From UHGV virus genome UHGV-0295468: a stretch of DNA of 11,413 nucleotides; one strand, written 5' to 3'. This document shows positions 1-11,413 of the stretch, one piece after another; position 1 is the first letter of the stretch; each line of letters opens with the position of its first letter. This DNA is from a virus. Under the pieces are notes generated by a model that saw only the letters and a list, made by a program, of their open reading frames with translations, searched no databases and was not told the origin of the DNA. A program made the position numbers and the translations under genes.

Positions 1-136
1 CACCTTATGACTGGAAGCCGATCAGGGTGGTTTGTCGTAAATGGTCGGCAAGCGTGGGGGCGTTGTGGGTAACCATAACGGCAGATTTTGAACAGGTCGT
101 GGCATAGGAGGCTCTGATGCAGGATATTCCACAGGA
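1..136. repeat. Left-terminal inverted-repeat arm: exact reverse complement of 287..422; carries an inverted copy of the M 3' end (plus-strand codons 3..107, stop 108..110) and of the first 6 codons of L (117..134)
   Basis: Base-by-base comparison: position i pairs with 423-i for i=1..136 with no mismatch; the match breaks at 137 vs 286. The arm runs to the window edge, so its true length may be larger. Confidence 0.95.
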
Positions 137-306
137 TGATACTGCCGCCCCTGCCAGGTAACCGGCTCACCTTTTTCGTTCTGCTCATTACAGAAAAAAT
201 AACGTTCACCACCGACCTCTGTCAGATCGATTTCCCAGAGCACCGCCTGGGCTGACTGAGTGAGGCGTGTCGTCTCATGATGTGTTTCCTGTGGAATATC
301 CTGCAT
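22..306 (-). CDS. L: Minor tail protein L, N-terminal fragment only. About 57 codons (306..137) are L-like; the rest of the 94-codon ORF (136..22) is out-of-frame read-through into the inverted-repeat arm
   Basis: Translation MQDIPQETHHETTRLTQSAQAVLWEIDLTEVGGERYFFCNEQNEKGEPVTWQGRQY closely matches the lambda gpL N-terminus as recalled. ATG at 306..304 lies 9 nt after the M stop, preceded by GAGG. Similarity stops exactly at the 136/137 repeat junction; lambda L is about 230 aa, so this copy is truncated. Confidence 0.8.
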   Translation of the reverse strand: MQDIPQETHHETTRLTQSAQAVLWEIDLTEVGGERYFFCNEQNEKGEPVTWQGRQYHPVEYPASEPPMPRPVQNLPLWLPTTPPRLPTIYDKPP

Positions 307-422
307 CAGAGCCTCCTATGCCACGACCTGTTCAAAATCTGCCGTTATGGTTACCCACAACGCCCCCACGCTTGCCGACCATTTACGACAAACCACCCTG
401 ATCGGCTTCCAGTCATAAGGTG
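287..422. repeat. Internal partner of the left inverted repeat; this copy is contiguous with the intact M gene and the L start codon
   Basis: Reverse complement of 1..136 (136/136). It lies within genuine coding context: L start ATG at 306..304, M stop TAG at 318..316, M C-terminal codons up to 422. Confidence 0.95.
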
Positions 423-645
423 GCGTCCACTGAAATGCGCGGACGCCACCGTGCCGTTCCAGAAAGGATTTTAAAGATGGGTGTTCACATTTACGAACAC
501 GTATCGTCACGCTGTAAGTCGACAACTGGTTATTCAGTCCCGCCGCACGACGCTGTTCATAACCATCGCCCAGCTTCACTGTCACCACTTTCGGCTCTGA
601 TACCACATTCATATCCGGGCGCACTTTCCAGTGAAACGTCTCCAT
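316..645 (-). CDS. M: Minor tail protein M (109 aa)
   Basis: Same length as lambda gpM with clear similarity along the protein (METFHWKV..., WTPPYDWKPIRV..., ...FEQVVA). ATG at 645..643 overlaps the H stop TAA (647..645) by one base; correct position between H and L. Confidence 0.9.
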   Translation of the reverse strand: METFHWKVRPDMNVVSEPKVVTVKLGDGYEQRRAAGLNNQLSTYSVTIRVRKCEHPSLKSFLERHGGVRAFQWTPPYDWKPIRVVCRKWSASVGALWVTITADFEQVVA

Positions 646-3600
646 TACCGATATGCTCCACTTAACCGACCACCATCACGGGCCTGCTGTTGCATAAAGT
701 CCGCTGCCGCTTTTTTCCCAAGGTCATAAACCACCTTCAGGGCAGCAGGACCTATCTGCCCGTTCGTGCCATCGTTATTGATCTCGATGTTGTACTGCGG
801 GGCAAACATCGCCATACCTGAACCACCAATATCCGCCACAACCCCCAGCTTACCGTCAGCACCACGACGCAGTGGCAGAATGGCTTCAGGTCCAGCTTCC
901 CCCATCACACCCGCGCCTTTTGCAAAAGCAAAAAACGTCGGACGGTTAACCACCGTGCCACTGTAGCGACTCAAATCAGCCGACTGATAAACACCGCCAT
1001 CAGCATTGGCTACAAAATCAAAAGGCAGCGCGGAAGCAATGCCTTTTACCGCTTTCATTAAAGCTATCTGAGCCATGATTCTGGACATATCTGACAGCAC
1101 AGAAGAGGTGAAGGATTTGAAATTGAGTTTGCCTGTAGTACAGAATGTCGCCAGCCAGTCACTCATGCTACTGAACGCAGACGTGAACAACTGTTCCACT
1201 GTCCCGGCTGTGTTATCCGCATTCTCAGTGACATTCTGGAGTGCACGCAGGACTCCGTTTTTCCAATTACCCTGAGCAATTTCAAGCCGTTGCCAGTAAC
1301 GGCGATTCTCATTCAGTTGTCGGTTCAGACTCTCCGTCAGCGCCTGCTCGGCCTTTCTGTAGTCATCCGTGTTATATGTCCCTTTCTGCTCACTATCCCG
1401 CCTCAACTGCTCCAGCTGTTGCTGGTATTTCTGGCGAAGACTCAGTTGTACCTGATATCGCTGCCGCTGCTGATCACCCATACCCACCGTGGCGATATCC
1501 AGGTCATGTTGCTGACGCTGAGCGCGCTCTTCTTCAGCCAGTTGACTGGTCAGCTGAATTGTTTTTTTCTTCAGATCGTTGAGTGCCGTCTGTTTCTGAA
1601 GCTCCTGCTGTTTTACATCCAGCAGCGTCAGTGCCTGAATCAGTTCATCTTTACGGGCCAGCACACTCTTTTCATCTGCCGTCAGTTTTTTCCCGTCCAG
1701 ATCGCTGATGCGCTGCTGCAGAGCCAGAAGCTGTTTATGCGCTTCTGTCATCTTTTCAGTGGCAATGCCTGCTGACTGTCTTGCAGCAGCAATCTGTCCT
1801 TCCACCTGTGCCTGTTGCTGACTGTACTGCAGCAATAACCGGGTGGCCTCATCATTACGGGTTTCGCGTGTTTTTTTCTTACCGGATGCCAGGGCTTTCT
1901 CGTAACGTTCATTTTCACGTTGTATCGCCGCATCCCTGACAGCCTGATCGGCGTACTGCATGGCATTAATACGCGCAATTTCACGCTGATGTCGTGCAGC
2001 TTCCGTTTCATTCATCCGGTTCAGTGCAGCATTTTCAGCATTACGGCGTTTCTGTTGCTCCTGATAATTCCGCTCTGCCTGCTCTTTTGCATCCTGCAAA
2101 TCCTTCTGGCGTTTTTTCTCCTGAAGATCGTTAAGACGCTGCTGATCGTATTCAACCTGAGAAGATGATGCCGTCCAGGGGAGTCTTTTCGCCCGCGACA
2201 CTTTCTCCTGCAAAGTGGCAATCTGCGCATCCAGCGAATCTTCACGACCAATATTCATGGCCGCATCCCAGAACTGCTTCCACCAGTCAGACAAAGTTTG
2301 CAGCGTACTGCCCAGCGCATTGAGGTTATTATCAATATCCGCAGTACGCCGACCGGTTTCCTCTGCCAGTGCAGACATGGCTATCCGTGCCGCATCACTG
2401 GACCGCCCCTGCTCTCCAAGGACGCGTATCTGCTCAAGCTGAGTGGCAGTAAGAAAATGCAGCTCATTGTCCAGAGACTTCGCGGCATTTACAGGATCAT
2501 CCTTCAGCCGCTTAAACTGATTTATGGTATCGCTGACCGACTGGCCAACCGATCGCTCCATCTGTGCGGCAGCTCTCGCCACCATACCGATATCGTTTCC
2601 ACGAAATGCACCACTCCCCACCACCTGAGCCAGCGCACCGGCTGCAGCATGTTGCGTGATACCATTCCCGGAAATAGCACGACTGAGCGTCCACAGCTGC
2701 CCGGCAGTGACTCCGGCATAATGCCCCGTCAGCGACAGCTGGCGGTTAAATTCTTCCCCCTCCTTCTGACCGTCATACCAGGCTTTACCCAGGCCATAGA
2801 CAGCCGCGGCAATACCGCCAATAACCCCGCCAAGCATCATGCCTTTCGGTGACATCAATGTGTCTATCCACCCGGCACGGTTAGCCAGCGTTATTCCGGA
2901 TCCCCTCAGCGCACCTAAATTTCCGCGGGCCAGTTCACCTATCAGAACGCCTATCTCCTGACGGGCCGCTGCACTTTTCAGCCCCAGCGAATGCGTGGCT
3001 TTTCCTGCCTGCTCCATTTTGCGGATATACACTTCTGCAGCACTGCTTACCCCCAGCTGGGCAGCCTTGGCACGAAGCAACTCAGAAGAAGAAAGATTCT
3101 GGCGGGTTGCCTGCTCTTTAAGCTGACGGATAAACGCCACTTTCTGTCGGGTAGCCTCTTCCTCAGCCTGTGTAAGAACACGGGTTTTCGCCGTAACCTC
3201 AGAAATCAGCGCCAGATAATCCTGCTGACCAATCCCGCCACTGTTTCTGGCCTGTCGGATCTGCTGCTGAATACGCTGTAATTCCTGCAGACCCGCACTG
3301 GCCTGTTTCACACTGTCAATCTGACGATAAAACGCAGCAGCCGCTTTATCCTGAGCCTCCGCCAGAGCCATGGCCTGCGCCTGTTCCTCGCGCATTTTCT
3401 GGCTCAGCGCCTCCATACGCTGGCGGGTTTTCTCCACCTCGCGGGCCATGCGTTCATGAGCCTGTGCGTTCTTCTCCACCGTCTGCGCATGGACGGATGC
3501 GGCTGTTGCAGCCGAAGACGCCGCCTGCGTTGTCTGCCGGGCGGCCTGAGTCTGACGCTCCATAAAACGCTGCATACGGGCAGAAGACCGTTCTGCATCG

Positions 3601-3701
3601 CTGGCTGCACCATTCAGAAGGTTTTTGATACGGGGGATTTCATTTTTAAACTCTGCCGCATCAATCCCCAAATCAATGACCAGGTTGGCTATCTGGTCCA
3701 T
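645..3701 (-). CDS. H: Tail tape measure protein (gpH-like), 1018 aa from the ATG at 3701
   Basis: N-terminus MDQIANLVIDLGIDAAEF and C-terminus INNDGTNGQIGPAALKVVYD...RDGGRLSGAYR match lambda gpH termini as recalled. Long Q/A/E/R-rich coiled-coil repeats and a Gly-rich hydrophobic segment are typical of tape measure proteins. ATG at 3701..3699 is preceded by GGAGGTG with 6-nt spacing; the ORF track starts 10 codons earlier at a TTG (3731), which I consider less likely. Confidence 0.92.
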   Translation of the reverse strand: MDQIANLVIDLGIDAAEFKNEIPRIKNLLNGAASDAERSSARMQRFMERQTQAARQTTQAASSAATAASVHAQTVEKNAQAHERMAREVEKTRQRMEALSQKMREEQAQAMALAEAQDKAAAAFYRQIDSVKQASAGLQELQRIQQQIRQARNSGGIGQQDYLALISEVTAKTRVLTQAEEEATRQKVAFIRQLKEQATRQNLSSSELLRAKAAQLGVSSAAEVYIRKMEQAGKATHSLGLKSAAARQEIGVLIGELARGNLGALRGSGITLANRAGWIDTLMSPKGMMLGGVIGGIAAAVYGLGKAWYDGQKEGEEFNRQLSLTGHYAGVTAGQLWTLSRAISGNGITQHAAAGALAQVVGSGAFRGNDIGMVARAAAQMERSVGQSVSDTINQFKRLKDDPVNAAKSLDNELHFLTATQLEQIRVLGEQGRSSDAARIAMSALAEETGRRTADIDNNLNALGSTLQTLSDWWKQFWDAAMNIGREDSLDAQIATLQEKVSRAKRLPWTASSSQVEYDQQRLNDLQEKKRQKDLQDAKEQAERNYQEQQKRRNAENAALNRMNETEAARHQREIARINAMQYADQAVRDAAIQRENERYEKALASGKKKTRETRNDEATRLLLQYSQQQAQVEGQIAAARQSAGIATEKMTEAHKQLLALQQRISDLDGKKLTADEKSVLARKDELIQALTLLDVKQQELQKQTALNDLKKKTIQLTSQLAEEERAQRQQHDLDIATVGMGDQQRQRYQVQLSLRQKYQQQLEQLRRDSEQKGTYNTDDYRKAEQALTESLNRQLNENRRYWQRLEIAQGNWKNGVLRALQNVTENADNTAGTVEQLFTSAFSSMSDWLATFCTTGKLNFKSFTSSVLSDMSRIMAQIALMKAVKGIASALPFDFVANADGGVYQSADLSRYSGTVVNRPTFFAFAKGAGVMGEAGPEAILPLRRGADGKLGVVADIGGSGMAMFAPQYNIEINNDGTNGQIGPAALKVVYDLGKKAAADFMQQQARDGGRLSGAYR

Positions 3702-4035
3702 AACGCACACCTCCGGAAATACCTTCCCCAAGATGCATCAGTTCTTCGTCCGTTCGCTCCGGTATCCCGTTCTCTTCCGGTAAAAGGCTGAAATCAGCCA
3801 CCGCAGCATCACTGCTGCCGGACACCATTCTCACGATCAATGCCTTCAGCGAGGCAAACTGCGCATCCATCCACACATCACTGAAGCTCTGCATCCGGAA
3901 ATAATCGCCCCACTCACCAAGCTCAGTGGCCGACATTTCCGACAGCATCCGCCGCCAGTCTGCCCGCCGGAACTCCCGGGCAAGCCGCATGACAAACTGC
4001 ATTTCCCGCGTCAGGACTTTTCCGGCGTCAGCGCC
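3673..4035 (-). CDS. T: Tail assembly protein T segment: the -1 frame ORF overlapping the 3' end of G, probably expressed only as a G-T fusion by programmed -1 frameshifting
   Basis: The -1 frame relative to G is open from 4035 (just after an in-frame stop at 4038..4036) to the stop at 3675..3673. It overlaps the G stop and sits between G and H exactly as lambda T does. A lysine-codon slip site lies one codon before the G stop. The internal ATG at 4002 has no obvious Shine-Dalgarno sequence. Confidence 0.65.
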   Translation of the reverse strand, partial: GADAGKVLTREMQFVMRLAREFRRADWRRMLSEMSATELGEWGDYFRMQSFSDVWMDAQFASLKALIVRMVSGSSDAAVADFSLLPEENGIPERTDEELMHLGEGISGGVRYGPDSQPGH

Positions 4036-4397
4036 TCATGCTCATCATCCCCGGCATTATCAATGGCCCCCATACCGCTCAGCGACAGAACCATCTCCGC
4101 CCCCGCACCCAGGGCATCATACGACCATGTTGTAATAACGGATGCGCAAAGCGTCTCTACATCCTTAGACTGATCCGCATTCCACAGTGAGCGGGAAACC
4201 AGCCAGGCATTGATATCCATCCCCATCCGCAGAAAAGCAATCTGTCGTTCAGCCTCCGGCAGTTCTCCCTCACCGGCATCAAACTTTGCCGTTCGCTGCT
4301 GAACAAACGCCAGATATTCAATTCTCTGCAACCCGGACAGCTCACTGAGCACCACGGACTGTTTTTCATAATTAAACGTGCCCTGTTTCAGAAACAT
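4011..4397 (-). CDS. G: Tail assembly chaperone G (128 aa from the ATG at 4397)
   Basis: Translation MFLKQGTFNYEKQSVVLSELSGLQRIEYLAF... resembles lambda gpG (MFLK..., TLSELSALQRIEHLA...). GGTGGAG Shine-Dalgarno 6 nt upstream of the ATG at 4397..4395. The ORF-track start at 4439 is a TTG inside the upstream hairpin and is unlikely. Confidence 0.85.
   Translation of the reverse strand: MFLKQGTFNYEKQSVVLSELSGLQRIEYLAFVQQRTAKFDAGEGELPEAERQIAFLRMGMDINAWLVSRSLWNADQSKDVETLCASVITTWSYDALGAGAEMVLSLSGMGAIDNAGDDEHEALTPEKS
4017..4023 (-). other. Candidate -1 ribosomal frameshift site GGAAAAG (minus strand) linking G to T
   Basis: G-frame codons read CCG GAA AAG TCC TGA. An AAG-to-AAA lysine tRNA slip at 4019..4017 would enter the T frame. 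The only window where both frames are open is 4035..4014. The motif differs from lambda's GGGAAAG as recalled. Confidence 0.5.
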
Positions 4398-4413
4398 CAT
4401 GTTCTCCACCTGC

Positions 4414-4437
4414 AAAAAAGCCCCGGATAACCGGGGC
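4414..4437 (-). terminator. Intrinsic-terminator-like hairpin between V and G: 7-bp GC stem (GCCCCGG/CCGGGGC), 4-nt loop, followed on the coding strand by TTTTTT
   Basis: Plus strand 4420..4437 is gccccgg-ataa-ccggggc, preceded by A6 at 4414..4419; on the minus (coding) strand this is a stem-loop followed by a U6 tract, 20 nt after the V stop and immediately before the G ribosome-binding site. Confidence 0.55.
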
Positions 4438-4457
4438 AAATGATGAGTATCGTCCTG

Positions 4458-5201
4458 TTAACCTGCGGCGCTGACAGTCACCGCAGCCACAGCCACAAAA
4501 TTCCCGTCAGCGGTCATGCCCACAATGCTGACACTGCCCTGCTTCACGCCTTTCACCGTGGCCACAAGCCCGTTCAGGGTCACCGTGGCAGTCTGTGGAT
4601 CTGACGAATGCACACTGATCGCTTTGTCACTGGCTCCGTCAGGTTTTACTGTAAAGGTCAGCGTGGTGGTTGCTCCCACTTTTACACTGGCAGATGCCGG
4701 TGCCACCGTCAGCCCGGTAACGCTCACTGTTTCAGTGCCTTCCTCTGCCAGATACGGACGCCCCACACCGCTGATTTTCACAGTGCGGGTCATCACGTCT
4801 TTTGAGGCAATGGTTTTACCCAGTGAACTCAGCCAGCCACGGAAAACATCAACAGTACCGTTGGGATATTTGATACGAAACGCGCAGACTTCACCGGAGT
4901 CGAACAACTGAACCAGTTTTTTCTGCCCGCTGTCACCCGGACGCCAGGCCAGCGTCGCCGAAGTATCACCGACTGATTTCTGCCCCTGGGTTGTCGTTTT
5001 CCAGTCTGCATCTTCATCATCGAGATAAGTATCATCTTCTGCATCAGCGGTCATTTCGCCAGGTTGCAGATCCTTCACCATCGCAAGACGCAGCCAGTCA
5101 GTGTCCGACAAAGGGTTCGCAAATGCGTCGCCGTTGCCGGTATACATCCAGAACGTCGTCCCCGCACCTTTCGTCTTTGCCAGTGGATTTGGTGTGGTCA
5201 T
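4458..5201 (-). CDS. V: Major tail protein V with C-terminal Ig-like domain (247 aa from the ATG at 5201)
   Basis: Strong similarity to lambda gpV as recalled (KGAGTTFWMYTGNGDAFANPLSD..., DTYLDDEDADW..., YPNGTVDVFRGWLSS...). Perfect AAGGAGG Shine-Dalgarno 5 nt upstream of the ATG at 5201..5199. The C-terminal ~90 aa are Thr/Val/Ser-rich and Ig-like. The ORF-track start (GTG at 5276) would overlap U. Confidence 0.92.
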   Translation of the reverse strand: MTTPNPLAKTKGAGTTFWMYTGNGDAFANPLSDTDWLRLAMVKDLQPGEMTADAEDDTYLDDEDADWKTTTQGQKSVGDTSATLAWRPGDSGQKKLVQLFDSGEVCAFRIKYPNGTVDVFRGWLSSLGKTIASKDVMTRTVKISGVGRPYLAEEGTETVSVTGLTVAPASASVKVGATTTLTFTVKPDGASDKAISVHSSDPQTATVTLNGLVATVKGVKQGSVSIVGMTADGNFVAVAAVTVSAAG

Positions 5202-5211
5202 TGCCACCTCC

Positions 5212-5613
5212 TTAATTCGTGTACGTGATCTGGTACGTGATTTCCGCCATCGCCCAGGTGGCCATCTCATTATCACGTTGATAGTTAAAACCGAGTGGGA
5301 TCAGGGTGTCGATGAGTCCGGAAAGTGCCGGTACATCATTCAGGGCCGGGAAAATGGTGCTCTCCATCCACATATCCAGCTCTGAATCCGGTGCCTGTGC
5401 CCGGATGAAGACAGCAATATGCAGAACAGCCTGCCAGTCATCTTCATCCGTCATTTTTCCGGTGTACTGAGCATCACTCAGCCACACCGCCACGGCAGGC
5501 AGTTCCTGCGCATCAACAAATGCCGGAAGCCCGTCAAAAAACGTGGCGCTGTCTCCACACTGTTCCCGAAGGCGTGCCAGTACGACCTGGCGGATTTGTG
5601 TATGTCGGTTCAT
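5212..5613 (-). CDS. U: Tail terminator protein U (133 aa from the ATG at 5613; an alternative ATG at 5625 gives 137 aa)
   Basis: Similarity to lambda gpU (ATFFDG..., PAVAV..., YTG, DSELD.WMES, ITY.ITY). The ATG at 5613..5611 overlaps the Z stop TGA (5612..5610) in an ATGA arrangement, suggesting translational coupling. Confidence 0.88.
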   Translation of the reverse strand: MNRHTQIRQVVLARLREQCGDSATFFDGLPAFVDAQELPAVAVWLSDAQYTGKMTDEDDWQAVLHIAVFIRAQAPDSELDMWMESTIFPALNDVPALSGLIDTLIPLGFNYQRDNEMATWAMAEITYQITYTN

Positions 5614-6188
5614 CGGGTCAGCCATAACCTCAGTTGTTGTTTCAGTGCATACCCCAGCTGTTTCGGCATTTCCGCAGCAATGATGCGGTCGCGGGCATCT
5701 TCAAATGCCTGTGTCAGCGGTCCGGACAGCGGGATTTTCACCACATCAATGGGGTAACGATTTTTGCCATCAATACGCCGCATCACATGCCAGCGACCAT
5801 TCGCCAGTTGCTGAATAAACGCATCCCGGAAAAGATATTTACCCACCTTCAGCACACTGCCACGGTACTGCAGTTTTCCACCACGCCGGGCCAGTCTGAC
5901 CCGGGCTGTCCCCAGCTTAATGGCGGGAAGATTGCCCCGGTTAACGCGGATCCTGGCCGTCATTTTTCCTGACGGACTGGCTTTAAACACCCGGACACGC
6001 TGACGTACCAGTTTCAGGGGGATCCCTTTCACCTGGTTATCTCCCGCAACGGTATTCCCGGCAACCTGCCGGGTGGCAACCGAGACCGCTTTCTGTGCCA
6101 CACGGTTTATCGCCCATGCGCTGGCCTGTGGCACCATACGGGTATCAAGGCTGTTCAGATTGCGGATGGCATTCTCAAGCCCCTTCAT
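5610..6188 (-). CDS. Z: Minor tail protein Z (192 aa)
   Basis: Same length as lambda gpZ with near-collinear similarity (MKGLE..., PQASAW.INRVA, QRVRVFKA, IRVNRG.LPAIKLG, NGRWHVM.R..GKNRYPIDVVKIP, LGYAL). GAGGTG Shine-Dalgarno 5 nt upstream of the ATG at 6188..6186. Confidence 0.92.
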   Translation of the reverse strand: MKGLENAIRNLNSLDTRMVPQASAWAINRVAQKAVSVATRQVAGNTVAGDNQVKGIPLKLVRQRVRVFKASPSGKMTARIRVNRGNLPAIKLGTARVRLARRGGKLQYRGSVLKVGKYLFRDAFIQQLANGRWHVMRRIDGKNRYPIDVVKIPLSGPLTQAFEDARDRIIAAEMPKQLGYALKQQLRLWLTR

Positions 6189-6199
6189 CCCACACCTCT

Positions 6200-6775
6200 T
6201 TACTCAATAAAGATCATTGGCTTACCGTTAAAGCGTTCATGCCGTGTGACCGTCCATTGTTGTCCGTCATAAACAACGCGATCCCCGCGCCGTGGGCGGT
6301 ATCCCGAAGAAAACACCACCAGAGAGACTCTGATCCCTTTTCCCGGTTGGCAGCGCGTATGGATGCGATCACGGTCAGAAAGATGGGAAAGACAGCCTCG
6401 ATTAATGATGTCGATATGGCTGTGATCCCGGGAGAAACACTGGCAGAGCTGAATGCTCTGTCCGGACCTCGGCACTTCTTCTGCACTGGTTCCGGCATCT
6501 GCCCAGACAACCCCGACCAGCGGCTCAGAGCCGCTGTTAGTCAGCTGAACTTTTCCTGACTTCAGATAAACCTTCTTACCCGTTTTCATGTCATCCGTTT
6601 TCAGCTTAGGCAGCATAAACACACCTTCGGTTATGCCGTCGCCTGTTTCTCCCTGTGGAATATCGGTCAGCGCCACCGCAAAAACATCCCCCACCTGCAC
6701 CAGATCTCCGCTGCTGATGGCTGCACTGGCAACAATCGCCACCGTTTTTCCTTCTTCTACAAAATTCTTTGCCAT
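6200..6775 (-). CDS. Continuous 191-codon ORF: N-terminal ~115 aa resemble a gpD-like head decoration protein; C-terminal ~45 aa resemble head-tail joining protein gpFII; no stop codon between them
   Basis: ATG at 6775..6773 with GGAGA Shine-Dalgarno 5 nt upstream. N-terminal part (KTVAIVASAAISSGD..., YLKSGKVQL, VVWADAGTSAEE) resembles lambda gpD (AAVGILAVAAD, FYKSGTFRY, VLWPEAASDE). The C-terminus (GKGIRVSLVVF...RRGDRVVYDGQQWTV) resembles the lambda gpFII C-terminal region (GQGVRV...SLFV...RRGDTLTIGEENFWV). Whether this is one fused protein or two genes merged by a frameshift is unresolved. Confidence 0.55.
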   Translation of the reverse strand: MAKNFVEEGKTVAIVASAAISSGDLVQVGDVFAVALTDIPQGETGDGITEGVFMLPKLKTDDMKTGKKVYLKSGKVQLTNSGSEPLVGVVWADAGTSAEEVPRSGQSIQLCQCFSRDHSHIDIINRGCLSHLSDRDRIHTRCQPGKGIRVSLVVFSSGYRPRRGDRVVYDGQQWTVTRHERFNGKPMIFIE

Positions 6776-6818
6776 AACTGTCTCCGCACAGCCCCGTTCA
6801 GGGGCTGATTTCAGGTAC

Positions 6819-6838
6819 AAAAAAAGCCCTTACGGGCC
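6819..6838 (-). terminator. Weak terminator-like hairpin after the capsid ORF: 4-5 bp GC stem with GTAA loop followed by T7 on the coding strand
   Basis: Minus strand reads ggcccgtaagggc followed by ttttttt (plus-strand A7 at 6819..6825), 24 nt downstream of the capsid stop. The stem is short, so this is tentative. A second 5-bp GC hairpin (plus 6791..6805) sits just upstream of the next ribosome-binding site. Confidence 0.35.
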
Positions 6839-6861
6839 ATCAGAGTTGTTGTCTGCGACGT

Positions 6862-8820
6862 TTACGCCGTACATTTCACCAGGCCGCGGTGATCAACTGG
6901 CGCAACACCAGCGTCAATACGCACTTTCGTTGTCACGCCATCCACACTGAAGCCCTCCATCTGATCAATATATGGCGTATCCACACCGTTGAGATAAGCC
7001 ACTTCAATCGTATCGGAGCCTTTGGACGCAGCCAGGTAGAAGGTGGTCTGGCTGTTATCATCAAGACGAGGCTCTGCAATAACGGTCGCAAAATCTTTCA
7101 CCGGGTTAATAATACCGGCGTTAATGTCAGCCCCCTTGACACTTGAGGAGCGAATGACCTGGTTAGCAACAGACTCCATCGCCGTCGGTACCAGTACGAA
7201 CGCAGGACGAATATTCAGATGACGCTCACCCTCTTTCTGAACGCGCATCAACTGGCGGGCTTTATCCAGCGATGCCACGTCCATTGCCGCGCTCTCCAGT
7301 ACGTTTGCATGTTTCGCTTTATCGAACAGACTTACATTATCTGTGGAGATTTTCGGGTTAGACGTCAGAATGGCATAAACCAGATCGGCAATAGTGGATT
7401 TCGCCGCACGGCCCAGCTTCATCGGGACATCGGTCAGCATATTCAGATCATCATTGATAATGGCCTGACGGGTGATACTGAACAGCTCGCCATAGGTCGC
7501 CAGTGCAATAGTGGCCTGTTTATCTCCGGTGGTGACGTATTTATATTCTGCCCCTTCACGCACCTGACGCAGAGCACTGAAGCCCCCCATACCCACACGA
7601 TGGGCAATTTTAAAATCAGACAACTGACCTTTCCGCGTCCACTGTTCATAGGTTTCAGGGGCATCTTCCCAGCCCTGCAGAATGGCTTTGTTCGCAACAT
7701 CCAGCAGAATATTACCGAAGTCAGACGTACTGTGTGTGAACGCCGCACCGACCATCTGCATCGGGTTATAACTGGAAACACCAATACCACGTTCAGTCAG
7801 TGACATACGGGCATATTCACGCAGGGTCATCCCGTTGTAGACATTATCACGTTCAGTTTTTTCAAACCCGGCGCGCGCCATCAGCGCCTGGCGGATCCCG
7901 TCCCCCACAAAATTACCGTTACCGGCATAAATATGAGCCGGGGTATTTTTATTGGATGGCGTGGACTCGCGCCCCATCTCGTTCAACAGCTTTTCGCGGG
8001 CCTGCTCCAGCGAACATTCAGGATCGGCAAGACACTGAGCCTGCAACGACTGATAACGCCCGCCAAACATGGCAAACAGATCATTAATACCGTTTACACG
8101 CGCTTTTTGCTCTGCCAGGACCTGCGCACGGATGCTGTTTTCATCCACCACGGGTGCTGCTGCCTGCACTGGCGTCCGGGAGGCTGCAGGTCCATCATCC
8201 TGTACGCGTGGAGCACTGTTGCGTGGCGGAGTAATCATATTTCGAATGGATTCCGGCATCTTTTTAAATTCCTCTGTACGTTTTGACTGAATACATGCCA
8301 TTGCCTTAACGGCTGGTGTCACCTGATCAGCAAATCCCTGTGCCAGACATTCGGCACCGGACATCCAGGTCTCATCCGCCAGCATGGCAGCAATTTCATC
8401 GGTGGTTTTCCCGGTTTTCTGTGCATAAGCGGGTAACAGAACCGCCTCAACTTTATCGAGCAGGTCGGCATAGGTGCGCATGTCCTCCGCATCACCGCCC
8501 GTAAAGCCAAATGGTTTATGAATCATCATGAAGGAGTTTTCCGGCATAATGACCGGGTTTCCCACCATCGCAATGACCGACGCCATTGACGCCGCCACAC
8601 CGTCGACATAAACGGTAATGGACGCACCATGTGTTTTCAGTGCATTAAAAATGGCGATGCCTTCAAAGACATCGCCACCCGGTGAATTAATATGGAGATT
8701 AATGTGGGTGATATCGCCCAGTGCATTCAGATCACTGATAAACTGCTTCGCCGTAACACCCCAGAAACCAATCTCGTCATAAATATAAATATCCGCGTCA
8801 CTCTGGTGACCTGCCTGCAT
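6862..8820 (-). CDS. Prohead protease (ClpP/S14-like), scaffold-like linker and HK97-fold major capsid region in one 652-aa ORF
   Basis: N-terminal ~200 aa have ClpP-like features (IYIYDEIG..., INSPGGDVFEGIAIFNALK, VDGVAASMASVIAM, MIHKP). The middle is a charged Ala/Gln-rich region. The C-terminal ~330 aa look like an HK97-type capsid protein (no lambda gpE similarity). ATG at 8820..8818 lies 13 nt after the portal stop. The ORF-track extension to 9081 starts at a TTG and overlaps the portal by ~250 nt. Confidence 0.78.
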   Translation of the reverse strand: MQAGHQSDADIYIYDEIGFWGVTAKQFISDLNALGDITHINLHINSPGGDVFEGIAIFNALKTHGASITVYVDGVAASMASVIAMVGNPVIMPENSFMMIHKPFGFTGGDAEDMRTYADLLDKVEAVLLPAYAQKTGKTTDEIAAMLADETWMSGAECLAQGFADQVTPAVKAMACIQSKRTEEFKKMPESIRNMITPPRNSAPRVQDDGPAASRTPVQAAAPVVDENSIRAQVLAEQKARVNGINDLFAMFGGRYQSLQAQCLADPECSLEQAREKLLNEMGRESTPSNKNTPAHIYAGNGNFVGDGIRQALMARAGFEKTERDNVYNGMTLREYARMSLTERGIGVSSYNPMQMVGAAFTHSTSDFGNILLDVANKAILQGWEDAPETYEQWTRKGQLSDFKIAHRVGMGGFSALRQVREGAEYKYVTTGDKQATIALATYGELFSITRQAIINDDLNMLTDVPMKLGRAAKSTIADLVYAILTSNPKISTDNVSLFDKAKHANVLESAAMDVASLDKARQLMRVQKEGERHLNIRPAFVLVPTAMESVANQVIRSSSVKGADINAGIINPVKDFATVIAEPRLDDNSQTTFYLAASKGSDTIEVAYLNGVDTPYIDQMEGFSVDGVTTKVRIDAGVAPVDHRGLVKCTA

Positions 8821-8833
8821 CCTGAACCAGGAA

Positions 8834-10342
8834 TTATTCTTCGGACTGGTCGTCGGTGTGCTGCGGCTCCTGTCGTTTCGTTGCGGCACTGCTGCCTCCT
8901 TTATCACTGGCCGGATCGGTATCAAATACCAGATCCAGCTTGCGGTTTTCATCAATTTCGGCCTTGCGCCGACGTTTGACATCATCTGGATTACGACCAC
9001 CTGCACGTACCCAGTCTGATTCTGTCGCCGCTCCACCACGAATCTGAATTTTCCAGGCCTCAGCCTCCTTAACAGGGTCAATCCACGGCATCACCGGTCC
9101 GGAATACACCGCGGTATACAGTGAAGAACGATCAAGATCGCGGGGTAGCCTGATAACACCGGATGCCACAGCCTGTTTCAGCCAGGCACGATACATCGGG
9201 CGGGTGACGGCACCAATAAACCAGTCCTGCAGGATCAGGTAGCCATCAGTGGATTCAACCAGCTCCTGACGCTGGGCGCTGTAAGTGCCGTTATAGTTGC
9301 GCGCTGTACTGGAAAAACTCAGACGACTGCCCGCCGCCACGGCACGCAACTGACCATTACGAAAAGTTTCAAGATTAGGATTGGGGCGATCCGACTTCAC
9401 CATTCCGATTTCTTCGCCGGGTTTCAGATCGTCGTAAATAATGCCTGGCTGAATGGTAAGCTCGCGTTCCTTATCCTTGCTGCCATTACCATCCGGTTCA
9501 TAGCTCTGCCCGTCGCCTTTCCGGATGTACATCCCCAGAGCAGCGGCGATCCTTGCTGCAGTCAGCTCAGAATCTTCATACTCTTTCAGGGCACTGAGGC
9601 GGATCAGCACACCGGACAACAAAGACGTCCCGCGCATCTGGTGCAGACGGCGAACAAATTTAAGATGCAGCATTCGCTCTGCATCCACTTCTTTGGTTTC
9701 CATCTGCCGTCCGGATACGGGACGGCTTTTATACACCAGATATTTTTCGGGACGCCCCCAGTCATCAACAAACACGCCCTGATTCAGCCTGTTGCTCTCA
9801 TCACTGGTCATGGGAATAAAGTCCGGCTCGAGCGCCTCCAGCCAGAAATGAACACCGGCAGAAGGCGTCAGGCTGTTTATGCGCCCGGAAACCATCTGGG
9901 CAAACACCTCACCATCGCGCAGCCAGGTACGCAACATCAGACGTTCCAGCATCGGACGGGTAAACTGCCCGGTGACTTCCGGACTGACAGACCATTCACT
10001 CCATCGGGTGCGTATCTCCGCTGCCAGATCACGGGCAATGGCCCCATTGCGTAATACCGGATGTGGCTCGACAATAATCCCGTTTTTCCCCACCACCCGT
10101 TCTTCCAGCTTGTCAAATACACCAATGACCAGATCGTGGTTGTTATCAAGGTAACGGGCCTGCTCACGTAACGACACGGCCCCGTACTGGCTTAACTGGT
10201 CGGCAGTTCGGTTTTCCCGCCGGGCTTTGTGTGTCCGCGTCGTTTTTACGGCCTCATAAGCCTGGATCACCGCACGGGAACGCAGCCTTGCCGCTTTCCA
10301 TCCTGGTGAAAAAACGCCAATCACATCATCAAGAATTGCCAT
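8834..10342 (-). CDS. Portal protein (502 aa from the ATG at 10342)
   Basis: Size and position (between W/terminase and the protease-capsid gene) are typical of a portal; acidic C-terminal tail. The ATG at 10342..10340 overlaps the W stop TGA (10344..10342) in an ATGA arrangement. Assignment rests on synteny and general appearance, not on a recalled alignment. Confidence 0.8.
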   Translation of the reverse strand: MAILDDVIGVFSPGWKAARLRSRAVIQAYEAVKTTRTHKARRENRTADQLSQYGAVSLREQARYLDNNHDLVIGVFDKLEERVVGKNGIIVEPHPVLRNGAIARDLAAEIRTRWSEWSVSPEVTGQFTRPMLERLMLRTWLRDGEVFAQMVSGRINSLTPSAGVHFWLEALEPDFIPMTSDESNRLNQGVFVDDWGRPEKYLVYKSRPVSGRQMETKEVDAERMLHLKFVRRLHQMRGTSLLSGVLIRLSALKEYEDSELTAARIAAALGMYIRKGDGQSYEPDGNGSKDKERELTIQPGIIYDDLKPGEEIGMVKSDRPNPNLETFRNGQLRAVAAGSRLSFSSTARNYNGTYSAQRQELVESTDGYLILQDWFIGAVTRPMYRAWLKQAVASGVIRLPRDLDRSSLYTAVYSGPVMPWIDPVKEAEAWKIQIRGGAATESDWVRAGGRNPDDVKRRRKAEIDENRKLDLVFDTDPASDKGGSSAATKRQEPQHTDDQSEE

Positions 10343-10554
10343 CAGAACCTCGCAAGCCGGTACCCGGGATGCCCCCGTCGTCGTGTAATCAGAGCCGCAA
10401 GGCGGCGCTCCCACTCCTGCCGTCCCTGCCGGATCTCAGATAAGTTTTCCATGGTCATCTGCTGACCATTAAAGGTGACGGATTTTCCGTCCAGCACCGC
10501 CATTTCAGCTTCCGTATAACGCTGAATCATGGCTTCGATATCATTCTGGTTCAT
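10342..10554 (-). CDS. W: Head-tail joining protein, gpW-like (70 aa from the ATG at 10554)
   Basis: Small protein directly after the terminase gene with a C-terminal RRRGHPGY motif resembling lambda gpW (RRRGPAGF). The ATG at 10554..10552 overlaps the terminase stop TGA (10553..10551); GGAGG lies 6 nt upstream. The track ATG at 10560 has no spacer after the Shine-Dalgarno sequence. Confidence 0.7.
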   Translation of the reverse strand: MNQNDIEAMIQRYTEAEMAVLDGKSVTFNGQQMTMENLSEIRQGRQEWERRLAALITRRRGHPGYRLARF

Positions 10555-11330
10555 AACCATCCTCCGGAAGTCAGCCAGGGGTTAACATCGTCAGTTACTG
10601 TTTTCTTCCGTTTTTGTTTTTTAACAGGCGTGGATACCGGTTCCGGTGTGGGTGACGGTTCGGTACTGTCCGGGACACACTCCAGCCAGGTTTCCCGGCT
10701 CGCCCACTCCGGTGCATCCGGCCAGCGGATCTTTTCGTATCCATGCAGAATGACCAGAGCCTCGGCATACACCATCAGGTCAAAAGCTTCGTTGGCACCG
10801 CGACCCGGCTTACTCCATTTCCCGTCACTGCTCCGCTCTTCATACGTCAGTTCGTCGTAAAACCAGCTCCCCAGCCAGTCAGGGAAATGCACATAGCCGG
10901 GACCTGGCGAGTCACGCCATAACGCGTTATTCACCCGGTCTTTCAGGGCATCCGTCTGAAGAAGCCAGAGCGGTACATCACCTGCGGCCTGCGCCCGTCG
11001 GCCCGTTCGTCCGGTGTTATCAGGGAATGTACGGGTGATCAGTTTTGCGCGCCGGATGCTGTCGCCCTTAAACAGGTAAATACGTTTACCAAGGCCATCA
11101 CGACGGCAACGACGCCAGAATTTATAGGCATTATCAGTGACCCCGTCTTCACCGCCGGAGTCCACCGCCATTGCCATCAGTCGCATTTGTTGAGAAGGAT
11201 CGGAGGCCAGCGGCCAGCTTTTATGAAAAACATCCGTCAGCAGGACATCCCAGTCTTCCGGATAGCTGGCCGGATCAATTCGCTGGCTCTCCCCGATGGC
11301 GGTGGACTCCGGCGGTGAAGACGGGGTCAC
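10551..11330 (-). CDS. A: Terminase large subunit, C-terminal fragment only (about 248 codons, 11294..10551); the codons above 11295 are read-through into the right inverted-repeat arm and the N-terminal ATPase part is absent
   Basis: Position immediately upstream of W and portal with ATGA coupling to W; globular, Trp/Asp-rich sequence typical of a terminase nuclease domain. The ORF-track start is a GTG inside the inverted-repeat arm. Assignment is by synteny and general appearance; not verified by search. Confidence 0.7.
   Translation of the reverse strand: MTPSSPPESTAIGESQRIDPASYPEDWDVLLTDVFHKSWPLASDPSQQMRLMAMAVDSGGEDGVTDNAYKFWRRCRRDGLGKRIYLFKGDSIRRAKLITRTFPDNTGRTGRRAQAAGDVPLWLLQTDALKDRVNNALWRDSPGPGYVHFPDWLGSWFYDELTYEERSSDGKWSKPGRGANEAFDLMVYAEALVILHGYEKIRWPDAPEWASRETWLECVPDSTEPSPTPEPVSTPVKKQKRKKTVTDDVNPWLTSGGWL
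11054..11171. repeat. Internal partner of the right inverted repeat, inside the terminase coding sequence
   Basis: Exact reverse complement of 11296..11413 (118/118); position i pairs with 22467-i; the match breaks at 11172 vs 11295. Confidence 0.95.
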
Positions 11331-11413
11331 TGATAATGCCTATAAATTCTGGCGTCGTTGCCGTCGTGATGGCCTTGGTAAACGTATTTACCTGTTTAAG
11401 GGCGACAGCATCC
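11296..11413. repeat. Right-terminal inverted-repeat arm: exact reverse complement of 11054..11171, running to the window edge
   Basis: Base-by-base comparison with no mismatch over 118 bp, separated from its partner by a 124-bp unique spacer (11172..11295). The arm reaches the last base of the window, so the true length is unknown. Confidence 0.95.

What the first reader, a model, noticed from the sequence alone, without database searches (positions are those of the whole stretch)
5610..10554. Mosaic module: lambda-type tail genes joined to a non-lambda head gene set
Z, U, V, G, T, H, M and L are recognisably lambda-like in sequence and order. The head genes are of another type: a ClpP-type protease with an HK97-fold capsid instead of lambda C/Nu3/E, a portal with no obvious lambda gpB similarity from my reading, and no gpFI. 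The junction appears to fall around the D-like/FII-like ORF, which is the ORF that looks anomalous.
Basis: inference. Interest (0 to 1): 0.35.

Follow-up and report, generated by a model that had tools for sequence, protein, structure and literature searches.

The report
Known cdtI/mEp460-type prophage late operon
This is the ordinary head-and-tail gene block of a well-known E. coli lambda-like prophage (cdtI/mEp460 type), and the one odd-looking gene comes from a 141-base flipped segment seen only in this sequence, most likely an assembly error.

Summary
Window 137-11295 is 98-99% identical to phages cdtI and mEp460. It is 100% identical to an E. coli prophage (GCA_964037715.1), apart from one flipped 141-bp segment.

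The gene order is TerL, W-like adaptor, portal, ClpP-scaffold-capsid fusion, DUF2190 decoration, FII-like, Z, U, V, G, T, H, M, L. Gifsy-2 and long-tailed Stx phages share this order, so the head/tail combination is an established phage type, not a fresh junction.

Against lambda there are three tiers:
- Head genes are 25% identical or less, or undetectable.
- Z to M are 26-56% identical.
- L to J are 75-99% identical.

It belongs to the lambda portal family (Pfam E 6e-82). TerL, the protease and the FII-like protein are also distant lambda homologues.

The anomalous D/FII ORF is not a recombination scar. A 141-bp inversion (6329-6469) with 16 bp lost fuses two normally separate genes. No searched public collection carries it.

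Both window ends (1-136, 11296-11413) are perfect inverted copies of nearby interior sequence. That points to an assembly or library artefact. Already known; low interest.

The parts
11296..11413 (.). Terminal inverted duplication: perfect reverse complement of 11054-11171. It breaks the TerL reading frame and is probably an artefact.
   Evidence: absent from all 1957 E. coli complete genomes that match this region
10551..11295 (-). C-terminal part of the terminase large subunit (gpA-type nuclease domain)
   Evidence: PF20454 GpA_nuclease 7.7e-47; the full-length homologue is 25% identical to lambda A; phrog_15, the same as lambda A
10342..10554 (-). W-like head-tail adaptor (70 aa), in the position of lambda W but in a different sequence family
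   Evidence: phrog_118 'head-tail adaptor' 1.4e-37, whereas lambda W is phrog_75/PF02831; no BLAST hit to lambda W
8834..10342 (-). Portal protein, lambda (gpB) family
   Evidence: PF05136 5.7e-82; 23% identity to gpB, E 5e-8; phrog_21 and phrog_537, the same as gpB
6862..8820 (-). Single gene encoding a ClpP-like prohead protease (about aa 1-200; Ser motif AASMAS at aa 76, His motif MIHKP at aa 99), a scaffold-like linker (about aa 200-350) and a major capsid protein domain (aa 354-649)
   Evidence: PF00574 4.6e-36 and PF25209 6e-55; ClpP structures 8e-16; capsid-domain profile hits Mu gpT-type capsid structures 8rkx/8rkc at 1.6e-7; motifs; 57% identical to MD8 gp5, described in PMC8508860
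6819..6838 (-). Intrinsic-terminator-like hairpin plus T-run just after the capsid gene
   Evidence: sequence GGCCCGTAAGGGCTTTTTTT; corresponds to the terminator annotated in mEp460
6470..6775 (-). Decoration/cement protein gene (DUF2190, Phage_cement_2), codons 1-102 of 107; its natural end is lost
   Evidence: PF09956 1.6e-19; phrog_122 'head decoration'; comparison with the intact gene
6329..6469 (.). 141-bp segment inverted relative to every relative. In the normal orientation it holds codons 2-48 of the FII-like gene. 13 bp (GTAAAACTCAATG, with the gp07 start codon) and 3 bp are lost at its edges.
   Evidence: none of the 1834 matching E. coli genomes has it; junction absent from IMG/VR, GTDB genomes and JGI metagenomes
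6200..6328 (-). C-terminal 42 codons of the FII-like head-completion gene (Gifsy-2/PF13856 family)
   Evidence: PF13856 6.6e-9 on fused-ORF residues 143-188; the intact gene scores 1.8e-17 and matches PDB 2pp6 at 1e-19
5610..6188 (-). Z-type tail completion protein
   Evidence: PF06763 9.7e-77; 50% identical to lambda Z
5212..5625 (-). U-type tail terminator
   Evidence: PF06141 1.4e-60; 53% identical to lambda U
4458..5201 (-). V-type major tail protein with a C-terminal Big_2 domain
   Evidence: PF16461 1.2e-66, PF02368 2.6e-12; 55% identical to lambda V
4011..4397 (-). G-type tail assembly chaperone
   Evidence: PF06894 1.8e-39; 33% identical to lambda G
3673..4002 (-). T ORF in the -1 frame relative to G (G-T frameshift product inferred)
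   Evidence: 38% identical to lambda T; PF06223 in identical prophages; frame relation read
645..3701 (-). H-type tape measure protein (1018 aa)
   Evidence: PF06791, PF24622, PF09718; 26% identical to lambda H; the exact protein occurs in 1073 blocks of the public collection
316..645 (-). M-type minor tail protein
   Evidence: 56% identical to lambda M; PF05939 in identical prophages
137..306 (-). First 56 codons of L-type minor tail protein; start of the lambda-near-identical tail-tip block
   Evidence: 84% identity over 58 aa; the full-length homologue is 93% identical to lambda L; 86% nucleotide identity
1..136 (.). Terminal inverted duplication: perfect reverse complement of 287-422. It truncates L and is probably an artefact.
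   Evidence: absent from all 4126 matching E. coli genomes

Best explanation
The window is the late (virion assembly) operon of a cdtI/mEp460-type lambdoid prophage of E. coli.

How it most likely works:
- A gpA-type terminase packages DNA into a procapsid through a lambda-family portal.
- One polypeptide builds the procapsid. It carries an N-terminal ClpP-like serine protease, a scaffold-like linker and a C-terminal HK97-fold (Mu gpT-like) capsid domain. The protease is inferred to cut itself and the linker away after assembly.
- A DUF2190 cement protein decorates the shell.
- The W-like adaptor and the FII-like protein close the head and dock it to a lambda-type tail (Z, U, V, G/GT, H, M, L...).

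Compared with lambda the operon has three divergence tiers: head very distant, tail shaft moderate, tail tip nearly identical. This is the usual outcome of module exchange among lambdoid phages. The head+tail pairing itself is old and shared with Gifsy-2 and Stx phages.

The fused D-like/FII-like ORF results from a 141-bp inversion with 16 bp lost. That inversion, together with the inverted duplications at both window ends, is most likely an assembly or library artefact of this particular sequence.

Shown: the identities, the family memberships, collinearity with known phages, and the private nature of the rearrangements. Inferred: the self-processing mechanism, the G-T frameshift, and the artefactual origin of the rearrangements.
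For: - 98-99% nucleotide identity over 137-11295 to cdtI, mEp460, Ayreon and others.
- 100% identity to a prophage in GCA_964037715.1 outside the flipped segment.
- Identical gene order and Pfam families in eight E. coli chromosomes, in Gifsy-2 and in an Stx2d phage.
- Per-gene identity table against lambda, HK97, Gifsy-2, Stx2d and MD8.
- Pfam and PHROG family assignments.
- ClpP Ser and His motifs are present.
- The capsid domain hits Mu gpT-type solved capsids.
- PMC8508860 describes the homologous MD8 gp5 as protease, scaffold and MCP in one gene.
- Pseudomonas MD8 shares the W-like, portal, ClpP-MCP and decoration genes at 42-57% identity (TerL only 24%) but has a completely different tail. 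This shows the head block moves as a module.
- PMC9836094 reports that head and tail genes form separate co-transferred modules in lambdoid phages.
- Private rearrangements.
Against: - No experimental data here show that the 652-aa protein is self-cleaved or that GT frameshifting occurs.
- The artefact reading of the inversions cannot be proved without reads.
- The junctions show no microhomology, so a simple de Bruijn-graph repeat collapse does not explain them.
- The source of the window could not be traced. The fused ORF is not on record.
Confidence: 0.9

Rival explanations
1. One reading: a recombination junction between a lambda-type tail block and a foreign head block lies in or next to the D-like/FII-like ORF, and the ORF's anomaly is the scar of that exchange.
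For: Sequence similarity to lambda does start right after this ORF. The FII-like protein has no BLAST hit and Z is 50% identical. Nucleotide similarity to lambda ends at 5958.
Against: cdtI, mEp460, Gifsy-2, Stx2d_112808 and eight E. coli prophages have the same head+tail pairing with two intact, separate genes there. The anomaly is fully explained by an inversion of the phage's own 141 bp, which is 98.6-100% identical in reverse to the intact relatives. No foreign DNA is present. GC content shows no shift at the site.
Confidence: 0.03
2. The 141-bp inversion and the inverted duplications are real in vivo rearrangements (for example template-switch or fold-back events) in a decaying prophage, which would inactivate its decoration and head-completion genes.
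For: The sequence as given contains them. Prophage decay is common. The fused ORF stays open by chance.
Against: Apart from the three strand flips, the remaining 11 kb are 100% identical to an intact prophage, so there is no other sign of decay. Two of the three events sit exactly at the window ends. All three are of read or fragment scale (118-141 bp arms, junction distances 124-154 nt) and the copies are 100% perfect. None is seen in 5426 complete E. coli genomes, 50,697 phage records, IMG/VR, GTDB genomes or JGI metagenomes.
Confidence: 0.1
3. The head block is an HK97-type head module (as in HK97 and HK022) joined to lambda-like tail genes.
For: HK97 and HK022 are the textbook case of a non-lambda head with lambda-like tail-tip genes. 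The capsid domain here has the HK97 fold by remote homology.
Against: There are no tblastn hits to any HK97 head gene. Only H to J match, at 28-37%, and only one 95-nt blastn match exists, inside H. The Pfam families here (PF05136 portal, PF00574 protease, PF25209 capsid) are those of the Gifsy-2/MD8 type. By established Pfam knowledge, HK97's own families are Phage_portal, Peptidase_S78 and Phage_capsid; these were not scanned here.
Confidence: 0.01

Closest known systems
Enterobacteria phages cdtI (NC_009514) and mEp460 (NC_019716), and Escherichia phage Ayreon
   Same: 98-99% nucleotide identity and full collinearity over window 137-11295. Same genes from TerL to L.
   Different: They have separate intact gp06 (107 aa) and gp07 (91 aa). 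They lack the 141-bp inversion and the terminal inverted duplications.
Salmonella phage Gifsy-2 and long-tailed Stx-converting phages (e.g. Stx2_112808, VT1-Sakai)
   Same: Same gene order and families across the whole operon. Identity to Gifsy-2 is 43-76%. For the Stx2d phage, head genes are 71-79% identical.
   Different: The tail-shaft genes of the Stx2d phage are only 24-57% identical, as far from the window as lambda's are. High nucleotide similarity to the Stx phages ends near 6560-6758, at the capsid|decoration border.
Bacteriophage lambda late operon (A-W-B-C/Nu3-D-E-FI-FII-Z-U-V-G-T-H-M-L)
   Same: Same overall order and logic. Tail genes Z to M are 26-56% identical and L to J are 75-99%. 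TerL, the portal, the protease domain and FII are distant homologues.
   Different: C/Nu3/E is replaced by a single ClpP-scaffold-capsid gene. D is replaced by a DUF2190 cement protein. W and Nu1 are replaced by other families. There is no FI.
Pseudomonas phage MD8 (PMC8508860)
   Same: Shares the head block: W-like, portal, protease-scaffold-MCP fusion and decoration at 42-57% identity.
   Different: TerL is only 24% identical and TerS gives no hit. There is no detectable homologue of the FII-like protein or of any tail gene; the tail module is different.

Membership tests
cdtI/mEp460-type lambdoid phage late operon | High nucleotide identity and collinearity with the type genomes | tested here: met
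   98.0-98.5% identity over 97% of the window; two collinear blocks plus the flipped 141 bp
cdtI/mEp460-type lambdoid phage late operon | Separate decoration (107 aa) and FII-like (91 aa) genes | tested here: not met
   They are fused into one 191-aa ORF by the private inversion. This is judged an artefact of the sequence, not a property of the phage.
Lambda-type head module | gpA-family large terminase | tested here: met
   PF20454 7.7e-47; 25% identity over 84% of the protein; phrog_15 for both
Lambda-type head module | Lambda-family portal (gpB, PF05136) | tested here: met
   PF05136 5.7e-82; BLAST E 5e-8 against gpB
Lambda-type head module | gpW adaptor (PF02831) | tested here: not met
   No PF02831 hit; phrog_118 here versus phrog_75 for lambda W
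Lambda-type head module | S49 protease gpC with nested Nu3 scaffold gene, separate from the capsid gene | tested here: not met
   The protease is CLP_protease (S14-like) and is fused to the capsid domain. Distant homology does exist: phrog_53 at 2e-35 for the window protein, and CLP_protease at 4.9e-4 for lambda C.
Lambda-type head module | gpE capsid (PF03864) and gpD decoration (PF02924) | tested here: not met
   The window has PF25209 and PF09956 instead; lambda E and D hit only their own families; no BLAST similarity
Lambda-type head module | FI packaging chaperone (PF14000) | tested here: not met
   No such ORF or Pfam hit; the capsid-decoration gap is 86 nt
Lambda-type head module | FII head-completion protein (PF05354) | tested here: inconclusive
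   Intact gp07 scores PF13856 at 1.8e-17 and PF05354 at 0.0018, below the cut-off. Lambda FII scores PF13856 at 0.0028 and phrog_153 at 3.9e-7. It is a sister family.
Lambda-type tail module | Z, U, V, G, T, H, M, L families in lambda order | tested here: met
   PF06763, PF06141, PF16461, PF06894, PF06791/PF09718; PF06223, PF05939, PF05100 in identical prophages; 26-93% identity to lambda
HK97-type head module | Homology to HK97 gp2-gp7 (terminase, portal, protease, capsid, adaptor, head closure) | tested here: not met
   No tblastn hit at E 1e-3 or better to any HK97 head gene
Programmed DNA inversion switch (inverton or shufflon type) | Inverted repeats flanking the invertible segment, and both orientations present in populations | tested here: not met
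   No flanking inverted repeats or microhomology. Only the forward orientation is found in 1834 E. coli genomes. The flip also destroys two virion genes.

The most novel reading that the evidence does not exclude
The 141-bp inversion-with-deletion and the two nearby inverted duplications are genuine in vivo fold-back or template-switch rearrangements. They would have been caught very early in the decay of an otherwise pristine prophage, giving a snapshot of how prophages are first inactivated.
Probability: 0.08. Interest if true: 0.2.

Novelty: already known. Interest (0 to 1): 0.07.

Why it matters
It matters little biologically. The architecture has been in sequenced phages (cdtI, mEp460, Gifsy-2, VT1-Sakai) for many years. 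Head/tail modularity in lambdoid phages is textbook knowledge (for example PMC9836094).

The useful outcome is practical:
- The apparent novel fused D/FII gene, and the broken L and TerL genes, should not be interpreted biologically. They arise from strand-flipped segments private to this sequence.
- The comparison also shows that 'non-lambda head' overstates the case. Four of the head genes are distant lambda homologues.

Tried and rejected
- I looked for the source contig through the fused ORF, in both the 191-aa and 206-aa versions. It is not on record.
- I searched the internal inversion junction in IMG/VR, trying both junctions, and the left junction in GTDB genomes and JGI metagenomes. 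There were no hits.
- I considered a programmed invertible switch. I rejected it because there are no flanking inverted repeats, no second orientation in 1834 genomes, and the flip is destructive.
- I considered a de Bruijn-graph repeat artefact. It is not supported because the junctions carry no shared bases.
- I considered that all four junctions fit 'read end joined to the start of its inward-facing mate'. Any strand-switch junction satisfies that geometry in one reading direction, so only the narrow distance range (124-154 nt) is informative. That is suggestive, not proof.
- I searched for lambda's GGGAAAG slip site at the G/T overlap. It is absent there; the only match is unrelated, at 6385.
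- I tried to read Grose and Casjens 2014 for the cluster nomenclature. The paper is not held.
- A GC-composition scan showed no shift at the proposed junction.
Full report
**What is in the window.** All real genes are on the minus strand. In transcription order they are:

| Window coordinates | Gene |
|---|---|
| 10551-11295 | C-terminal part of a large terminase |
| 10342-10554 | 70-aa W-like adaptor |
| 8834-10342 | Portal |
| 6862-8820 | 652-aa protease-capsid gene |
| 5610-6188 | Z |
| 5212-5625 | U |
| 4458-5201 | V |
| 4011-4397 | G |
| 3673-4002 | T, in the -1 frame |
| 645-3701 | H |
| 316-645 | M |
| 137-306 | Start of L |

Pfam assigns these as follows:
- TerL: GpA_nuclease.
- Portal: Phage_portal_2, the lambda family, at 5.7e-82.
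- Protease-capsid gene: CLP_protease plus Phage_capsid_4.
- Anomalous ORF: Phage_cement_2 plus a C-terminal Gifsy-2-family fragment.
- Tail genes: Minor_tail_Z, Phage_tail_U, Phage_TTP_12 plus Big_2, Phage_TAC_2, and TMP_2/TMP_4/Tape_meas_lam_C.

**Identity of the element.** Window 137-11295 is 98-99% identical and collinear with phages cdtI, mEp460, Ayreon and a dozen others. The exact tape-measure protein occurs in 1073 blocks of the public assembly collection. All eight E. coli loci shown (seven chromosome-sized contigs and one 145-kb contig) have the same gene order and Pfam content. One of them (GCA_964037715.1, locus L011) is 100% identical to the window over 137-6328 and 6470-11295. So the window is the late operon of a known, very common E. 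coli prophage type.

**Test of the mosaic claim.** I compared each protein of the intact prophage with lambda, HK97, Gifsy-2, an Stx2d phage and Pseudomonas phage MD8.

Against lambda there are three tiers:
- Head genes: TerS none, TerL 25%, W-like none, portal 23%, protease-capsid none, decoration none, FII-like none.
- Tail shaft: Z 50%, U 53%, V 55%, G 33%, T 38%, H 26%, M 56%.
- Tail tip: L 93%, K 96%, I 75%, N-terminus of J 99%.

At the nucleotide level, lambda matches only at 134-783 and 4741-5958. HK97 matches only a 95-nt stretch inside H, and it gives no protein hit in any head gene.

The tail genes are lambda-type, the head genes are much more distant, and the similarity boundary lies at the FII-like|Z border (about 6188-6200).

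**Corrections to the head-gene reading.**
- The portal is a lambda-family portal (PF05136; phrog_21 and phrog_537, the same as gpB).
- The terminase is gpA-type (phrog_15, the same as lambda A).
- The protease region hits lambda C's PHROG (phrog_53) at 2e-35. Lambda C itself reaches the CLP_protease gathering score and weakly hits the window's phrog_133.
- PMC8508860 reports a 99.9% HHpred match between the homologous MD8 gp5 and the lambda C protease region.
- The intact FII-like protein and lambda FII cross-hit each other's families: PF13856 and PF05354, and phrog_153 at 3.9e-7. The intact protein matches PDB 2pp6 from Gifsy-2.
- Only TerS, the W-like adaptor, the capsid domain and the decoration protein fall in other sequence families.
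- A profile of the capsid domain hits Mu gpT-type solved capsids. It has the HK97 fold, as does lambda gpE by established knowledge, so 'HK97-fold' does not separate the two.
- FI is absent.

**The pairing is old.** Gifsy-2 is collinear with the window at 43-76% identity across the whole operon. The Stx2d phage has the same order and families.

Real evidence for module exchange comes from other comparisons:
- MD8 shares the W-like, portal, protease-capsid and decoration genes at 42-57% identity (TerL only 24%). It has an unrelated tail module and no FII-like homologue.
- The Stx phages share head genes at 71-79% identity but tail-shaft genes at only 24-57%. High nucleotide similarity to them stops at the capsid|decoration border.
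- The boundary therefore depends on the comparator. This is the classic lambdoid pattern; PMC9836094 reports head and tail genes as separate co-transferred modules.

**The anomalous ORF.** In the intact relatives there are two genes here, gp06 (107 aa, decoration) and gp07 (91 aa, FII-like), which overlap by 8 bp. In the window the 141 bp at 6329-6469 are the reverse complement of the normal sequence. The 13 bp GTAAAACTCAATG, which hold the gp07 start codon, and 3 further bp are missing at the edges.

The product is gp06 residues 1-102, then 47 nonsense residues, then gp07 residues 50-91. The ORF stays open by chance. No foreign DNA is involved and no GC shift is present. There are no flanking inverted repeats and no microhomology.

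Of the 1834 complete E. coli genomes that carry this region, none has the flipped arrangement. The left junction sequence is absent from IMG/VR, GTDB genomes and JGI metagenomes, and the right junction was checked in IMG/VR only. The fused protein is not on record.

**The window ends.** Bases 1-136 are a 100% reverse complement of 287-422. Bases 11296-11413 are a 100% reverse complement of 11054-11171. These copies truncate L and break the TerL frame. No E. coli complete genome that matches either end region has either structure.

There are thus three strand-flip events of 118-141 bp, with junction distances of 124-154 nt. Two of them sit exactly at the sequence ends, inside DNA that is otherwise identical to an intact prophage. 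Together they point to an assembly or library artefact, such as chimeric fragments or mis-joined read mates, rather than biology. I rate this about 0.8. It cannot be proved without reads.

**Mechanism (inferred).** The 652-aa protein keeps the ClpP Ser (AASMAS, aa 76) and His (MIHKP, aa 99) motifs. By analogy with MD8 gp5 (PMC8508860), the HK97 delta domain and lambda C/Nu3, it most likely co-assembles as protease, scaffold and capsid in one chain. It would then remove its own N-terminal two domains on maturation. T lies in the -1 frame at an A-rich G terminus (CCGGAAAAG), consistent with the conserved G-T frameshift, although lambda's GGGAAAG site is not present.

**Verdict.** The architecture is already known, the 'junction anomaly' is a private and probably artefactual inversion, and interest is low.

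Noticed in passing
window 1-136 and 11296-11413: Both ends of the window are perfect reverse-complement copies of nearby interior segments (287-422 and 11054-11171, with spacers of 150 and 124 nt). They truncate L and break the TerL frame, and they are absent from all matching complete E. coli genomes.
   Followed up: yes
window 306-316 (M|L border); L011 13386-19146: Identity to lambda jumps from 56% (M) to 93-99% (L, K, N-terminus of J; I 75%). This sharp and apparently recent exchange boundary of the tail-tip block is more clear-cut than the head/tail one.
   Followed up: partly
window about 6560-6860: High nucleotide similarity to Stx-converting phages and to Klebsiella phage Kp4865-4 covers only the head block. 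It stops at the capsid|decoration border, next to a terminator-like hairpin at 6819-6838.
   Followed up: partly
window 4011-4030: The G/T overlap has CCGGAAAAG instead of lambda's GGGAAAG slippery site. T is in the -1 frame, so the frameshift site may be a variant heptamer.
   Followed up: no
window 6200-6775; RefSeq annotations: Public annotations name the FII-like gene 'DNA breaking-rejoining protein' or 'ATP-binding sugar transporter', and one record calls the decoration gene 'membrane protein'. These look like inherited misnomers for virion proteins.
   Followed up: no
window 8820-8889: Gene callers in public assemblies start the protease-capsid gene 69 nt further upstream (675 aa, overlapping the portal gene). 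Phage records use the 652-aa start at 8820, so the true start is unsettled.
   Followed up: no
window 840-934: An isolated 95-nt stretch inside the tape-measure gene is 80% identical to HK97 gene H. It is the only nucleotide match to HK97.
   Followed up: no
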